From contig OX597814.1 of assembly GCA_951406725.2 (NCBI GenBank), positions 16,058,001 to 16,122,000 of the forward strand: a stretch of DNA of 64,000 nt, written 5' to 3'. A program made the translations under genes and the position numbers. Positions 7,688-52,515 of this stretch are shown piece by piece (the stretch's first letter is position 1; every line of letters begins with the position of its first letter). The stretch is from Octopus vulgaris (lineage: Eukaryota). The notes beneath the pieces were generated by a model. The model was given only the letters and a program-made list of their open reading frames with translations. It ran no database searches and had not been told where the DNA came from.

Positions 7688-8363
7688 TTGGGTCATCCCA
7701 TAAATAATGCAATTTTTTTATCATTCTTTTATTTTTCAAAATTAAGATAAAAAAAGTTCTTTTTTTTAATCTAAAATATACTTTTCTTCATTTTCTACAA
7801 TGCTTTTCCATCTATCTGGTAGACTTGCAAGGCGCATCTTCCAAAATTCACTTGTTCGTGACGAAAAATTCTCCTCCAGTACTATTCTGACTTCGTCTAA
7901 CGAATTTCTAATTTTCCCCACCCCCAAATGATTTTGAATGCTGCGGAAAAAATGATAATCAGATGGGGCAATGTCTGGTGAATATGATGAGGTATCGTTT
8001 CCCATTCAAACTGCTCCAGCCTATGGAATGTCATCCACGCTGTGTGTAGCCGAACATTATTCTGATGAAAGAACACCTTTCGTGTTGAAACAAAAGATGG
8101 TAATTTTTCTTCTATCGCTGACTTAAGCCGCTGAAGCTGCTCGTAGTAGATCTCCTTTGTTAAAGGCTTAAAGTGGACTACACCTTTCATATTCCACGAA
8201 ACACCCTTACGTGGGTAACAACACTTTACGTGGGTGAGGACCTTCTTTATCTTGGGGTACCGGTGTTTCTCCTTTCCTTAACCACTTTCTTCGGCGCTTG
8301 ATAATTTTATACAGAACTCATTTCTCGTCAACAGTCACTATAGAGTAAAAAAAAAAAAGAAAA

Positions 8364-19750: not shown

Positions 19751-20509
19751 AAAGACATTCTAAGACTTGCTTATTATTCTTCTGAGAATATTTATGTGCA
19801 ATTTACTTAAAATGCATACAGAGTAATTGGCCATTGTATTTTAAGTCAAGCACACAATGTCGAGAAATTAGCAAAACACAAACTAGAAGTGCAACAGAGT
19901 TTCTGTTATGACTTTAAACTGGTTCGATTCTCCAGAGCTGTCTGAGCGATATGCATGAACATCTAAACTTTATTCTGTCTCCATCTAAAGGATCTTTCTC
20001 TCACGCTAAAGGAAATGCCATGTTTTAGCCCATTTAATTACATAAGTCTTTTACGATATCACCTTATTCTTCTAATACTATACATTATTTCACTAATAGT
20101 TATTTTACAAAAATGGTTACATTCGTGATCTGATCTTGGTCAGAAAAAAAATTTTATTTCAATTTTTGAATTTGCCTTTCAAGAATTTTAATCCGAAACA
20201 GTGTGCTGAAAGGAATATTGTTATAAGTAGGAACATGATTAATTAACTCTTGAAATCAGTACCTAGCACGGCTGCAGTTTAATGACTGAGACCAGTACAC
20301 ATACAGACACACAGACACACACATACACACACATACAGCTATATAGTACTTTATTTTATGTACAGTAGCTTAATATAAATAGTATAAAAGTGTTTTATCT
20401 ATAAAAGTTCGACTTTGATTTTGTTCCAAAGCACATCTGACTATTATGCTTTGTACATAATAGATAATATATTCGGTTTCTTTCTCTTAGTTTTAACTGT
20501 ATATACATA

Positions 20510-20666
20510 GGCGCAGGAGTGGCTGTGTGGTAAGTAGTGGTTCAGTCCCACTGCGTGGCATCTTGGGCAAGTGTCTTCTGCGATAGCCCCGGGCCGACCA
20601 ATGCCTTGTGAGTGGATTTGGTTGACGGAAACTGAAAGAAGCCTGTCGTATATATGTATATATATA
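20510..20666 (+). mobile_element. 5' half of SINE family B, split by the PLE insertion
   Basis: Matches 2048-2225 up to the internal TA tract; has a deletion between the A- and B-box. Confidence 0.9.
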
Positions 20667-23293
20667 ACGCATTCATAAACCGGATAAGATGGCTCGTTTT
20701 CTTCCACGAGAACGAAGATCTAAAATCGAACCGGACAACAGCATCGTCCGAATATGGCCGGCTTTTTAAAACATTGGATACGCCGCCACCCAACCCAAGA
20801 CTGAAGAAGTTTGAGGACGACTTGTGGGACATAGTTAGAAAGATTAAGTTCAGGAAGTCACCCATGAGAAATGCCCACCTCAGATACCTAGATAAAATTA
20901 CCAAGGACATTAATAGAACGGACGGAGTCCTGGTCCAGTCCGACAAGACCAGGAACACATACAAGCTACCCATTAAGCAGTACCTAGATTTACTCGGTAA
21001 AGAGATCAAGAAAAATTATAGAACAACCAATTGGAGTACCCTGAGAAAGGTAAACTTGGAAATTAAGGAAATAATGTTGACACACGGAATTCAAATGAGA
21101 ACGCAGCCGCTTAGCCCTAAGCAACCTAGATTCATAGTGAAGGACCATAAACCGAACTTCCACACCAACCCAGCGCTAAGACTCATATGCCCTGCTAGCT
21201 CTGATATCGGGATAATCAGTAAGTACATTTTAGATAAATATATCCCTAGTTTAGTAAACAAACTGAAGCTCAGCCTCTGGGCCAACTCCTCGCAGGTAGT
21301 GAAGTGGTTCTCTTCCATCCCCAATAAGAACCGTACTAGGTTCATCCAGTTTGATATCGCCAGCTTCTACCCCTCGATTAACCCTAGTGTACTAAATAAG
21401 GCCCTTTGGCATGCTCACAACAAGGCTGGCCTCACCAGAGAAGAAATAGATATCATTTTAGTTGCCAGGAAATCGTTTATTAAGTTTGATAATAAGTTGT
21501 GGATCCGTAAAGATACTCCCAATGATTTTGATGTGCCTATGGGGAGTTCGGATAGTGCGCAGATAGCCGATTTGGTCGGAATATATATTCTCTACGAATT
21601 GTCCGACCAATTCCCGGAGATCGCGGGCGGCCTGCATCGTGACGATTGTCTGTTTTACCTGCAAAACACCACGAACAGAATAGTGCAGAAAACTAAGAGC
21701 AGGTTAGCTAGGTTTTTTAATAGAGTGGGCATGAATATAGTTTTTGATAATGAACTCACCAAGGCAAATTTTCTAGACGTTACACTTAACCTTAATAGCG
21801 ACTCATACTGCCCTTACCATAAGCCTTCCACTAATTTGAAGTATGTCAGTGTCTTCTCCAATCATGCCAAAACCGTAACAGACAATTTGGTTAAAAACAT
21901 CTCTCTAAGATTGTCTGGCTTGTCCGCTAGTGCCGATATTTTTATGCAGAAAGCGGAATTTTATAACGCCGCACTATCCAAGGCCGGTTATAGGCAGAAG
22001 GTAATTTATATTGATCCGGCCCTTCCGATGCCATCATTCGGTCATCAGGATAGGGCCGTCTATAATAACATTAATAATTTAAGTAGTGACGGGAGCGCGG
22101 CGGGTGCTGGGGCAGTCGCTCCCGCATTTAATTTAGCGAACAAGGATAATTATCGGTCCGGGGGATCTCACACTAACCCAAAACCCGTTATTCATCCGAG
22201 AATCACCCACCCGAATGCGAGAGCTGGCGTCCCGACCCATCACATAAATAGGAACAAGCATATATGGTTTGTAATTCCCTTTGGTAAGCAGATTAGAACT
22301 AACCTCCCCCTCATGTTTCGACAAGCCATCGCCAATAACTTCCCCAGAAGTTCCAAATATTACTCCACGGTTAATTCGCATAAAGTTAGGATAGCTTTCT
22401 CCAACACTAAAAACCTCGCCCAGATAGTCGCCTCCCATAATAATAGGCTGCTTACTAAGACCCTACCACCTTTTTCCGGAGGCACAGCTTCTTCCGCTCC
22501 CGGTTTAACGCTCAGTAGGAATAATAATAGTAGTAATAATGATATGAGAGCCAGTACAGTGACTCATAATCCCAGCTCCAACCAGGGATTATATACTAGG
22601 GGTATAGTTACAAATAAGGGTGATGTCATTGACGGTAGCGATGGCAGTAGTGAGGTGAACGCAGCTCGGCTCGCTAGGGTAGAGAGTCCCAATAGCAACT
22701 CCAGCATCGTTTCCGGCCATAGCAGCACCACTGGCACTAGCAATGACAGCACTCTGAGTGATAGTGTAGAATCAGGGGTTATTCCGTTAGTTAATAGTGA
22801 CGTAGTGGAAAATAAAGTAGTAAGCGGCTGCAGTTCTCGCAACAAATATAGTAACAGTAACGCAGTTCTAATTTCAGAAACTAATCCTAATAGAATAAGG
22901 TTCACGTCGGTGAACTCCAAGATCAGAAACGCCGTCTACCAATGTAAGGTTTACACGGACTCAGATGTCTACTCTTATGTCGGGGCCTCATCGTCAAGAT
23001 TGTCCTCACGAATCTCCAACCATTACGCAACTTTTCGAGACGTGAATAAATGCCAGACCACGGGACTTAGCAAGCTAATTTGGCGATTGAAGAATACGAA
23101 CTCAAGCTACAGCATGGAATGGTCAATTTTGTCGGTGGCCCCCCCATTTGACAGGGGCAGAAGGAAGTGCAACCTTTGTGTCTCCGAACTCTTCCATATA
23201 TTGTTCGCCAGAGACCGGATGGTAAACGGACTTTTACAGTCGGCTTCTCGATGCCCCCACTGGCGGCGTTACACTTATCTTGCTTATAAATAA
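20654..23293 (+). CDS. PLE reverse transcriptase-GIY-YIG endonuclease polyprotein, 879 aa, uninterrupted
   Basis: SDKTRNTY, KDHKPNF, RLICPASSDIG, FDIASFYPSI, FDVPMGSSDSAQIADLVGIYIL, GLHRDDCL, NFLDVTLNL; C-terminal AVY...YVG...R...H (GIY-YIG) and CNLC..E...N...CPH. Confidence 0.93.
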   Translation: MYIYNAFINRIRWLVFFHENEDLKSNRTTASSEYGRLFKTLDTPPPNPRLKKFEDDLWDIVRKIKFRKSPMRNAHLRYLDKITKDINRTDGVLVQSDKTRNTYKLPIKQYLDLLGKEIKKNYRTTNWSTLRKVNLEIKEIMLTHGIQMRTQPLSPKQPRFIVKDHKPNFHTNPALRLICPASSDIGIISKYILDKYIPSLVNKLKLSLWANSSQVVKWFSSIPNKNRTRFIQFDIASFYPSINPSVLNKALWHAHNKAGLTREEIDIILVARKSFIKFDNKLWIRKDTPNDFDVPMGSSDSAQIADLVGIYILYELSDQFPEIAGGLHRDDCLFYLQNTTNRIVQKTKSRLARFFNRVGMNIVFDNELTKANFLDVTLNLNSDSYCPYHKPSTNLKYVSVFSNHAKTVTDNLVKNISLRLSGLSASADIFMQKAEFYNAALSKAGYRQKVIYIDPALPMPSFGHQDRAVYNNINNLSSDGSAAGAGAVAPAFNLANKDNYRSGGSHTNPKPVIHPRITHPNARAGVPTHHINRNKHIWFVIPFGKQIRTNLPLMFRQAIANNFPRSSKYYSTVNSHKVRIAFSNTKNLAQIVASHNNRLLTKTLPPFSGGTASSAPGLTLSRNNNSSNNDMRASTVTHNPSSNQGLYTRGIVTNKGDVIDGSDGSSEVNAARLARVESPNSNSSIVSGHSSTTGTSNDSTLSDSVESGVIPLVNSDVVENKVVSGCSSRNKYSNSNAVLISETNPNRIRFTSVNSKIRNAVYQCKVYTDSDVYSYVGASSSRLSSRISNHYATFRDVNKCQTTGLSKLIWRLKNTNSSYSMEWSILSVAPPFDRGRRKCNLCVSELFHILFARDRMVNGLLQSASRCPHWRRYTYLAYK

Positions 23294-24178
23294 CGCTTAT
23301 AAATAATACCTGCACCCGGTTACACTACTTATATGAAAATAGCCCTTGGAAATAAATTCTGAAAAACTTTTAGAGAAATATGATTAACCATTGCAAGGGT
23401 AATTACTCCTGGGAGAAGAATGGGGTTTTGTCTTGACGACGGGGGGTTTCTTTGACAAGGCAGTTTTAGACGAACACACGCACACATAAAAAATTTCTTT
23501 CTGCCACCCGACGGATTTTACAGCAGTGACCATTGTGTAGGGCTGTTTACCAACTGACGGCCACGTGATCAAACGCACATACGAACACATAGAACAGTAC
23601 ACACACACATGTTTCTAAGTAGATTTTGACTCGCCCCATATAATACACCTAATATTCTTTAAATAGTCAGAACTTTAGTCTCGGTCACAAAGAACATCTA
23701 AGCACCCCATGCTCCCACCCACCGGAATGACCGCTGCCTGACCCGTTAAAACCTTCAACGCACCCACCACCAGTTTTCAACATACATTGATAAACAGTTT
23801 GGCCATGGGCTCTTAGGAGCCGCATTCGATTTGTTTTGCTCCGCCTCTGTTCTGTTTTTGTTTTTTCCAACGGATTTCCTATTTCTTCCTGAAGAGAAAG
23901 ACACAATATGGTCTCCTTATTCAATCGGAATTTGGTAAATTGTGCCTTTCGAAACACGTGTAGAATGCAATAAAACGATTTCTGTTCAATCTTCGTTCAA
24001 CTCCATTTCTTCAATTCACTAATAATATTAAAATTCAATTATCCGCACCAACGCACGGTTGCAACACCATATGGTTGTACCTCCAACCGTGCTGTCTTCT
24101 GCTGTGATTTTTACTACCAAGGTATCGGTTAAACTTTTGATCAATCTGCAACAAGATTATTCATCTTTCTATTTCACA
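20667..24178 (+). mobile_element. Penelope-like retroelement (5'-truncated ORF plus ~0.9-kb 3' pseudo-LTR region)
   Basis: Higher-GC unique block bounded by (TA)n on both sides inside a SINE; RT + GIY-YIG ORF; hammerhead motif followed by AATAAA downstream. Confidence 0.9.
23886..23965 (+). ncRNA. Type I hammerhead ribozyme of the PLE
   Basis: UUC-CUGAAGA-stem II (23896-23907/23939-23950, 11 of 12 bp)-GAAA-C-ACGU-G-UA^GAA; predicted cleavage after A23962. Confidence 0.8.
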
Positions 24179-24209
<31 letters not shown>

Positions 24210-24430
24210 GGTGTGTGTTTGTGTGTCTGTGTTTGTCCCCCTAGCATTGCTTGACAACCGATGCTGGTGTGTTTACATCCCCGTCACTTAACGGTTCGGC
24301 AAAAGAGACCGATAGAATAAGTACTGGGCTTACAAAGAATAAGTCCCGGGGTCGATTTGCTCGACTAAAGGCGGTGCTCCAGCATGGCGGCAGTCAAATG
24401 ACTGAAACATGTAAAAGAGAGTAAAGAGAG
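24179..24430 (+). mobile_element. 3' half of SINE family B, downstream of the PLE
   Basis: TA/TG tract, then gtgtctgtgtttgtccccctagcattgcttgacaacc...gtaaaagag, matching 2225-2454. Confidence 0.92.
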
Positions 24431-30783: not shown

Positions 30784-30909
30784 GCACGCACACACACAGT
30801 GTATATTCGGTTTATATTTACCAGTTTGCATTAAAGGAAAAGAAAACGCAAAATATCCAATCCAAGTTTAAAAGAATTTTAAAGCAAATTAATAATAATA
30901 ATGATGATG

Positions 30910-31960
<1,051 letters not shown>

Positions 31961-51007: not shown

Positions 51008-52515
51008 ATGATAAGCAAAGCTAGACAGAAGAACTAGGAATGAATTAATTTTGAATTGAGGACTCAACACAAGGGCACGTGTAGCAAAATTACACTTACT
51101 TAGAAAGGAAGGTGGATGAGGGTTAATATTAGTAGAAGAATGCATGGAGTTAGCTAGAATAGATATACACTCTTATGCAGGTAATAGTGAAGAAACTATA
51201 TTAAGAGATACTAGAGTGATAACAAGACATAACGAAACCCAAAAGCCAAACGAAATTAAAAATCAGAAAAAAGTACAAAAGTTATTTGACTGGCAGGAGT
51301 AGGCTTTGCATGGTATATTCTCAAAATATAGTTGCAGCAAATAGAATTAGTGAGACATGGTTATGTTTACAGAAATGAAGACTGAAAAGGGAAACAGAAA
51401 ATTAGTAAGTAGCAGCATCAGATCAAGCATTGGATTGGAAGCACTCCGTCGGTTACGACGACGGGGGTTCCGGTTGATCCGATGAACGGAACAGCCTGCT
51501 CGTGAAATTAACGTGTAAGTGGCTGAGCACTCCACAGACACGTGTACCCTTAACGCAGTCCTCGGGGATATTCAGCGTGACACAGAGAGTGACAAGGCCG
51601 GCCCTTTGAAATACAGGTACAACAGAAACAGGAAGTAAGAGTGAGAGAAAGTTGTGGTGAAAGAGTATAGCAGGGATCACCACCATCCCCTGCCGGAGCC
51701 TCGTGGAGCTTTAGGTGTTTTCGCTCAATAAACACTCACAACGCCCGGTCTGGGAATCGAAACCGCGATCCTACGACCGCGAGTCCGCTGCCCTAACCAC
51801 TGGGCCATTGCGCCTCCACTCATCAAGCATTAAGGACTCATTGGATAAGAGCCAGGATAGACAAAAATCAAGTAGATTCCCAATATAGGTTATGCAAATC
51901 AATACAGAAAAGCGTTACTCATATAGTAAGGGAATATAGCATACTGGCACAGAAAGAATATAAGAAAAGACATTACAACAAAGAGAGTGTAATCTACTGG
52001 GAGTTATGTAGAAAGTTAGGATTTGAACATACTGATAAATGCTATGAACATGACCCGAGTAAAGTACTAGAAAGTGAGAAATATAAAATGTTGAGGGACT
52101 TTAACATCCAGCCTGACAGAGTAATAGAAGTTAGAAGGCCTGATTTAGTAGCAGCAGATAAAAAGAATATAAAGTACCAGATAATTGACTTTACAGTCCA
52201 AAAATGATGTGAGAATTAATATGAGAGATATAGGGAAAATAAAAACGTGCCAGGACCTAGCTATTGAACTACAGAGATCATAGAAAGTGCAGGTAAAAGG
52301 TATCCTAGTAGTTATAGGTGCATTAGGAACTAAAGATTTGTTTAGATGGATAGAGAAAATAGGCATAAAACCCAGTTCCTTACAGTAGCAGAAAAGTCTT
52401 ATTAGGGACAGCTAAGATACTTACGAGGGTTCTTGGCGTCTAAGGTTACTTGTTGTAGCCCAATATTAGGAATTTTTTTTCTTTTCTAGCAGTCTAATCT
52501 GCTGTGTGCATATGA
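51008..52515 (+). mobile_element. Older, decayed R4/Dong-clade LINE 3' fragment, interrupted by a family A SINE
   Basis: RKEGG*GL, DQA|LRT, LAQKEYKKRH...IYWELCRK, DFNIQPDRVIEVRRPDLV...IIDFTV, VVIGALG; followed by (AAT)n. Confidence 0.82.
51432..51818 (-). mobile_element. SINE family A
   Basis: TSD atcaagcatt at 51422-51431 and 51822-51831. Confidence 0.94.

What the first reader, a model, noticed from the sequence alone, without database searches (positions are those of the whole stretch)
20510..24430. Intact Penelope-like element nested in the (TA)n tract of a SINE
Seen: a family B SINE is split exactly at its internal TA microsatellite (5' half 20510-20666, 3' half 24179-24430) by a 3.5-kb PLE with an 879-codon ORF free of stops and frameshifts. 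Every other TE ORF in the window is decayed. Inference: a recent, possibly active PLE family that targets (TA)n and so lands in SINE microsatellites, giving a SINE-PLE-SINE composite with a Pol III-type head and a LINE-recognised tail.
Basis: partly seen in the sequence, partly recalled or inferred. Interest (0 to 1): 0.75.

Follow-up and report, generated by a model that had tools for sequence, protein, structure and literature searches.

The report
Dead TA-targeting Penelope copy splitting SINE
A broken copy of a young jumping-gene family that inserts into TA repeats landed inside a short repeat element; that nesting is a routine by-product, but the family lacks the small cysteine motif thought to steer such elements to TA repeats, so something else likely does the aiming.

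Summary
The nesting is real; 'intact' is not. A Hydra-type Penelope-like element (PLE; 20667-24178) splits one SINE at its TA tract; contigs of two runs hold the empty site lacking both SINE halves. The family is young (1,624 exact 3' ends; copies up to 99.9% identical) and TA-targeted (725 of 782 forward ends). But this copy lacks about 137 nt including the real start codon and 29 codons, has no upstream pLTR, and alone carries YRDD>HRDD; the Met of the '879-codon ORF' comes from the SINE microsatellite. SINE nesting recurs independently (at least 17 sites, about 1%) with no sign of enrichment; this composite junction is unique, its Pol III head has a 24-nt deletion, and T-runs follow. (TA)n targeting by Hydra PLEs, including in Octopus, is published (PMC8557442), and this scan noted TA-targeted PLE ends elsewhere in this genome. 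New: the family lacks the CxCX5C linker (0 of 23 ORFs; CxC kept in 69 of 69 homologues) proposed to mediate TA targeting, yet its endonuclease is under purifying selection. A linker-bearing Hydra family in the same genome could help in trans.

The parts
20510..20666 (+). 5' half of a tRNA-type SINE incl. left part of its TA tract; A-box-like 20520, B-box-like 20539; 24-nt deletion between them (box starts 19 nt apart against 43 in an intact copy)
   Evidence: box assignment from recalled consensus; outer boundary 20509/20511 from empty site
20654..20656 (+). ATG inside the SINE microsatellite, by chance in frame with the PLE ORF (gives M-Y-I-Y in place of 29 native codons)
20667..24178 (+). 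5'-truncated Hydra-type Penelope-like element (unit length in siblings about 3.65 kb)
20681..22010 (+). N-terminal RW motif (20681), DKT (20939), RT core (QFDI 21347, MGSSD 21539, YRDD site 21635 reading HRDD in this copy)
22010..22250 (+). first low-complexity insert (about 75 aa, predicted disordered)
22454..22930 (+). Ser/Asn/Gly-rich linker replacing the CxCX5C motif; one Cys only; predicted disordered
22931..23293 (+). GIY-YIG-type endonuclease (AVY..YVG, R, H, E, N; CxxC at 23168, CxH at 23252; no CCHH)
23880..23972 (+). type I hammerhead ribozyme motif, long stem II, 3-bp stem III; predicted cut after 23962; one stem I pair broken in this copy
   Evidence: Rfam gave no hammerhead hit
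24020..24030 (+). internal AT-rich site used as a second fixed end in inverted arms of sibling insertions
24179..24430 (+). right part of TA tract and 3' half of the same SINE

Best explanation
This is a 5'-truncated, likely dead copy of a young Hydra-type Penelope-like retrotransposon family that inserts into (TA)n, lying inside the pre-existing TA tract of one SINE. Shown: the SINE is one insertion; the PLE ends join TA tracts; the copy lacks its start, upstream repeat and the YRDD tyrosine; such nests arose many times independently and this one was not copied onward. Inferred mechanism: the family's endonuclease nicks (TA)n, the nicked TA strand pairs with an AU-rich stretch of the element RNA at one of two fixed sites (24178 and about 24030, both at TTCAC-[T/C/none]-(A/T)AATA) and primes reverse transcription from an RNA longer than one unit (uncut tandem or circular), which gives tandem and inverted 5' arms; here synthesis stopped about 137 nt short and was joined to the left TA arm. 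The SINE is simply one of millions of TA targets.
For: Empty site without either SINE half in contigs of 2 of 4 runs laid. 725 of 782 forward-strand 3' ends followed by TATATATA within 6 nt; of 62 distinct 3' flanks in loci L002-L090, 10 are tandem read-through, 46 clean TA, 5 interrupted TA, 1 ATATA then a SINE tail. 13 same-orientation and 4 opposite-orientation SINE nests; both halves flank the PLE in 10 of 13 and 3 of 4, with different PLE structures (two look like one duplicated event). 19 of 29 siblings have an ATG-to-stop ORF of 895-904 aa; 16 subfamily-B copies are 99.35-99.92% identical. Hydra-type motifs match Craig et al. section 11 and Fig. S7. Second end: 53 of 88 contexts of the internal site end in TA. 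Three tandem units with 0 substitutions among them. Junction unique.
Against: Nicking, priming and RNA form were not tested; hammerhead pairs are conserved but show no covariation, and the local fold is no more stable than shuffles (z 0.13). No SINE-only allele at this locus was seen (inconclusive), so SINE-first order rests on the split geometry. No target-site duplication can be read inside TA. A tree with named Hydra references was not built. YRDD>HRDD was not assayed, so 'dead' rests mainly on the missing start and promoter.
Confidence: 0.88

Rival explanations
1. The SINE-PLE-SINE composite is a functional unit: the SINE head drives transcription and lends an in-frame ATG, and the SINE tail lets a LINE move the whole.
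For: SINE ATG is in frame with the ORF and the frame is open for 879 codons; both SINE ends are present.
Against: 5' junction occurs once in 2.8 Gb; A-B box spacing cut by 24 nt; T4 at 20697 and T5 at 20763 would stop Pol III (terminator rule recalled); private changes look neutral and include YRDD>HRDD; in-frame chance is 1 in 3.
Confidence: 0.03
2. The family is moved largely in trans by another TA-targeting PLE that keeps the cysteine linker, so its own endonuclease need not aim at TA.
For: A second Hydra-type family with 63 scored matches (61 without stops) lives in the same genome; 22 of 30 fetched copies keep CNCx5CPLxGxC. Earlier scan notes describe non-coding hammerhead passengers inserted in TA here (unchecked).
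Against: The family's own endonuclease shows 7 non-synonymous to 13 synonymous differences between subfamilies (p=8e-5 against neutral) and keeps R, H, E, N; the two families share no DNA similarity beyond chance (best E 0.64).
Confidence: 0.25
3. The TA next to the element is a tail made by the RT, not a target.
For: 3' TA runs are long (median 59 nt over 46 ends); PLE RT folds like telomerase.
Against: TA lies on both outer ends, and in 13 of 17 SINE nests both SINE halves flank the element exactly at the SINE's own TA tract. Some lengthening after or during insertion is not excluded.
Confidence: 0.05

Closest known systems
Hydra clade of C-terminal EN+ PLEs (Craig et al. 2021, PMC8557442; sections 6 and 11, passages, supplement parts 2 and 58 read)
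   Same: Single ORF with RT and C-terminal GIY-YIG; RW and DKT motifs; YRDD region and FDV.MG..D motif like the Hydra rows of Fig. S7; no CCHH; CxxC and CxH around E and N; hammerhead near the 3' end; (TA)n targeting; tandem and inverted 5' arms.
   Different: No CxCX5C linker (kept in all 9 Hydra rows of Fig. S7); two disordered inserts make the ORF 895-904 aa and the unit about 3.65 kb against under 3 kb; RWL for RWK; the extension between the two ends is about 150 nt against the 30-40 bp tail described for Naiads.
Hydra-1_Obim of Octopus bimaculoides (same paper, File S1: 2,507 bp, (TA)n)
   Same: Octopus Hydra PLE that inserts in (TA)n.
   Different: A different family by eye: 709 aa, other N-terminus and hammerhead, linker cysteines present. 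Not aligned computationally.
PLE hammerheads and the circular-template proposal (Cervera and De la Pena 2014, PMC4209133; passages read)
   Same: Type I hammerhead with long stem II and short palindromic stem III in the terminal repeat; head-to-tail multimers.
   Different: None of kind; activity untested here.
Naiad, Neptune, Nematis, Penelope/Poseidon clades
   Same: PLE architecture; Naiads also prefer (TA)n (PMC8557442).
   Different: EN is C-terminal (not Naiad); no CCHH, and RT motifs unlike the Neptune, Nematis and Penelope rows of Fig. S7.

Membership tests
EN+ PLE | RT related to telomerase RT | tested here: met
   AlphaFold model of sibling L006 (mean pLDDT 74): top 7 Foldseek hits are telomerases, best E 2.9e-9. 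Pfam gave no hit.
EN+ PLE | GIY-YIG endonuclease with R, H, E, N in the same ORF | tested here: met
   AVY..YVG, RISNH, CVSE, VN aligned with homologues; no profile hit obtained
EN+ PLE | pLTRs: partial tandem and inverted 5' copies | tested here: met
   siblings; absent from the window copy
Hydra clade | RWK motif | tested here: inconclusive
   RIRWL: RW kept, K replaced
Hydra clade | DKT in place of DKG | tested here: met
   SDKT in 23 of 23 ORFs
Hydra clade | No CCHH motif in EN | tested here: met
   one Cys between AVY and YVG, no Cys pair
Hydra clade | CxxC and CxH flanking E and N | tested here: met
   CNLC and CPH in the window copy; L006 has FPH
Hydra clade | CxCX5C linker between RT and EN | tested here: not met
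   0 of 23 family ORFs; linker 173-182 aa with 1 Cys against median 56 aa with CxC in 69 of 69 homologues that span it
Hydra clade | Canonical hammerhead | tested here: met
   core invariant in 7 of 7 copies, 98.6% of cells paired against 35-52% when slid, no covariation; cleavage untested
Hydra clade | (TA)n insertion | tested here: met
Hydra clade | Generally under 3 kb | tested here: not met
   unit about 3.65 kb
Hydra clade | RT groups with named Hydra families in a tree | tested here: inconclusive
   FastTree of 51 unnamed proteins nests the family among linker-bearing homologues (support 0.98-1.0, midpoint root); named references were compared only by eye
Autonomous intact copy | Own start codon, upstream pLTR, YRDD | tested here: not met
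tRNA-derived SINE | A and B boxes, high copy number | tested here: met
   155,209 exact 17-mers; boxes by recalled consensus
tRNA-derived SINE | 3' tail shared with a partner LINE | not tested
   no search made for the partner LINE; SINE family name not established

The most novel reading that the evidence does not exclude
A Hydra-derived PLE family has replaced the cysteine linker with a long disordered spacer and still inserts into (TA)n over 90% of the time using its own endonuclease. TA specificity would then come from the endonuclease core, its C-terminal CxxC/CxH module, or pairing of the nicked TA strand with AU-rich priming sites in the RNA, not from the linker that Arkhipova 2006 and Craig 2021 proposed. 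With a linker-bearing Hydra family in the same genome, this is a natural paired test.
Probability: 0.55. Interest if true: 0.55.

Novelty: new variant of a known kind. Interest (0 to 1): 0.36.

Why it matters
The nest itself is ordinary, though it is a clean proof that the TA is a target and not a tail. The value lies in the family: how PLEs choose microsatellites is unresolved, and the one published candidate determinant (linker cysteines, PMC8557442) is missing here while targeting persists. That makes the hypothesis directly testable, and adds a young family of about 1,600 ends that Pfam misses altogether.

Tried and rejected
Nematis clade: my first recalled guess, dropped after reading PMC8557442. 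Circular permutation of the ORF through the target TA: considered from the window alone, rejected when siblings showed the missing 137 nt. Pfam: no family for the ORF, for a full sibling, or for a homologue. Rfam: 7 weak hits, none a hammerhead, all far below gathering score. Minimum-energy fold of the hammerhead region: z 0.13, uninformative. First pair count was mis-registered (46% paired) and redone. Second read lay for a SINE-only allele in X1, X2, X9, X10: no bridging contig listed, no verdict. Within-species polymorphism not shown: X4 carries the same label as most holders but shares flank variants with X5, which has another label. SINE enrichment: none seen, but both sides are rough (17 of 1,624 is a floor from tight patterns; background 2 of 90 and 0 of 50 tracts). 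Look-up of earlier findings by sequence: nothing. Paper searches listed no report of a linker-less Hydra family; Repbase, Dfam and the repeat library of PMC13282606 were not seen and may already hold this family.

Full report
Observation. The SINE 5' half (20510-20666) and 3' half (24179-24430) match whole SINE copies elsewhere in the window at 89-96% and meet at the SINE's internal TA tract. Between them lie 3,512 nt with a stop-free frame ending at 23293. In two of four runs laid, one contig joins window 20508 directly to 24429, lacking both halves and the insert (X4: 19 differences in 835 aligned flank letters; X5: 18 in 839). The halves are therefore one SINE insertion, with a 2-nt AG overlap at its ends. 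A SINE-only allele was looked for in four runs without a verdict.

The copy is not intact. A search of the own genome gave 76 matches from 38 of 2,577 candidates scored. Siblings continue 137 nt 5' of position 20667; this stretch holds the true ATG and 29 codons with a motif shared by homologues. Of 29 siblings, 19 have an ATG-to-stop ORF of 895-904 aa, and most have an upstream tandem or inverted repeat, which the window copy lacks. The copy has 20 private substitutions in 2,625 nt, 13 non-synonymous and 7 synonymous (p=0.13 against neutral), one turning YRDD into HRDD; all sibling alignments covering the codon keep Tyr.

The family is young and aims at TA. The terminal 17-mer occurs 1,624 times (control 1). 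On the forward strand, where rows are one per site, 725 of 782 are followed by TATATATA within 6 nt (the reverse count is inflated by repeated matches and was not used). Of 62 distinct 3' flanks in L002-L090 (window copies left out), 10 read on into a tandem unit, 46 are clean TA, 5 interrupted TA and 1 has ATATA. Sixteen subfamily-B copies are 99.35-99.92% identical over the ORF. Most short insertions have an inverted arm whose outer end lies at a second fixed site near 24030 and also joins TA: 53 of 88 contexts. Both ends sit at a TTCAC motif followed by an AT-rich run. Three tandem units on contig C1 have no substitutions among them and 22-27 to other copies, as expected from one multimeric or circular template, or from recent local duplication.

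SINE nesting is a by-product. Tight patterns found 13 nests in the same orientation and 4 in the opposite; both SINE halves flank the PLE in 10 of 13 and 3 of 4, each with its own PLE structure except one apparent duplicate pair. This shows that TA is a target that was there before. The SINE has at least 155,209 copies. Nests are at least 1.0% of ends (1 of 52 in the unbiased loci), while SINE-internal tracts are 2 of 90 TA tracts in the window and 0 of 50 in 30.5 kb elsewhere: no enrichment is visible, on rough numbers. The 5' junction of this composite occurs once in the genome. The SINE head has lost 24 nt between its boxes, and T4 and T5 runs follow at 20697 and 20763; by the recalled Pol III rules it would not make a long transcript.

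What kind of PLE. Pfam is blind to it. A model of sibling L006 matches telomerases best. Craig et al. 2021 (PMC8557442; sections 6 and 11, passages, supplement parts 2 and 58) define the Hydra clade by RWK, DKT, no CCHH, CxxC and CxH, a CxCX5C linker, hammerheads and (TA)n insertion, and list Hydra-1_Obim from Octopus. The element meets DKT, no CCHH, CxxC/CxH, hammerhead (23880-23972) and TA; its RT motifs read like the Hydra rows of Fig. S7 and unlike the other clades. By eye it is not Hydra-1_Obim. The host is likely an octopus (inferred from the recalled SINE type and from earlier scan notes). Recently active Penelope families in Octopus vulgaris are in print (31 families; PMC13282606, part 1 of 3 and passages). 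I file it as working like Hydra and probably derived from it, not as a textbook member, because one defining feature fails.

The failing feature is the new point. None of 23 family ORFs has CxCX5C. Of 171 homologues, 69 span thumb to endonuclease; 62 match a strict four-Cys pattern and the other 7 still show CxC with 4-5 Cys; median linker 56 aa. The family has 173-182 aa with one Cys, predicted disordered. A tree of 51 unnamed proteins nests it among linker-bearing ones, so loss is the likely direction. Craig et al. propose, citing Arkhipova 2006 (not read), that this linker mediates microsatellite targeting. Yet this family hits TA over 90% of the time, and its endonuclease differs between subfamilies by 7 non-synonymous and 13 synonymous changes (p=8e-5; RT core p about 0.04; inserts p=0.07). 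Against a cis reading: a second Hydra-type family with 63 scored matches lives in this genome, 22 of 30 fetched copies with the full linker and 8 with Cys changed to Phe, and could act in trans. Five paper searches listed no linker-less Hydra family; curated repeat libraries were not seen.

Mechanism. Shown: TA target, two fixed ends, tandem and inverted arms, truncation of this copy, independent nests. Inferred: nicking of (TA)n by the element's endonuclease, pairing of the nicked strand with AU-rich RNA at the fixed ends, reverse transcription of a longer-than-unit RNA; a circular template was proposed by Cervera and De la Pena 2014 (PMC4209133, passages). Both ends lie downstream of the predicted hammerhead cut (23962), so the template must be uncut there or re-ligated. 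Earlier scan notes on other DNA of this genome describe similar TA-targeted two-ended insertions; I had seen the two ends before that look-up.

Verdict. Real nest, dead copy, known targeting; a new family with an informative loss. Interest 0.36.

Noticed in passing
L116-L145 (G000, many contigs): Second Hydra-type PLE family, 709 aa, 63 scored matches, 61 without stops; 8 of 30 fetched copies share a Cys-to-Phe change in the linker CxC, hinting that the motif can decay in an expanding lineage too.
   Followed up: partly
G000:C1:119514158-119526382 (L013, L014, L019, L109): Head-to-tail array of three full units plus a partial one; no substitutions among the three, 22-27 to other copies.
   Followed up: partly
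window 20124-20351: A 228-nt stretch with a SINE-tail-like piece is also absent from the X4 and X5 contigs but largely present in X2: a second presence/absence difference 160 nt from the finding.
   Followed up: no
window 30883-31772: Frameshifted 3' fragment of a non-LTR retrotransposon (zf-RVT, E 7e-5, below cut-off) abutting a (TAA)51 tract; resembles Dong/R4 by recalled motifs.
   Followed up: partly
window 51797-52207 (-) and 7897-8277 (-): Short frames that look like another non-LTR fragment and a mariner transposase fragment (recalled motifs).
   Followed up: no
L002-L030: Synonymous divergence between subfamilies rises from 0.02 in the RT to 0.18 in the endonuclease, and L002, L003 look mosaic: likely recombination or template switching between subfamilies.
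   Followed up: no
P0024, P0080: Partial proteins at 60-67% identity; P0024 has a similar cysteine-free low-complexity stretch after the thumb but stops before the endonuclease, so the linker loss may be older than this family.
   Followed up: partly
L064, L072, L086: PLE ends in TA tracts that abut the outer ends of SINEs; loose ends also show TA before many SINE starts, so the SINE itself may favour TA.
   Followed up: no
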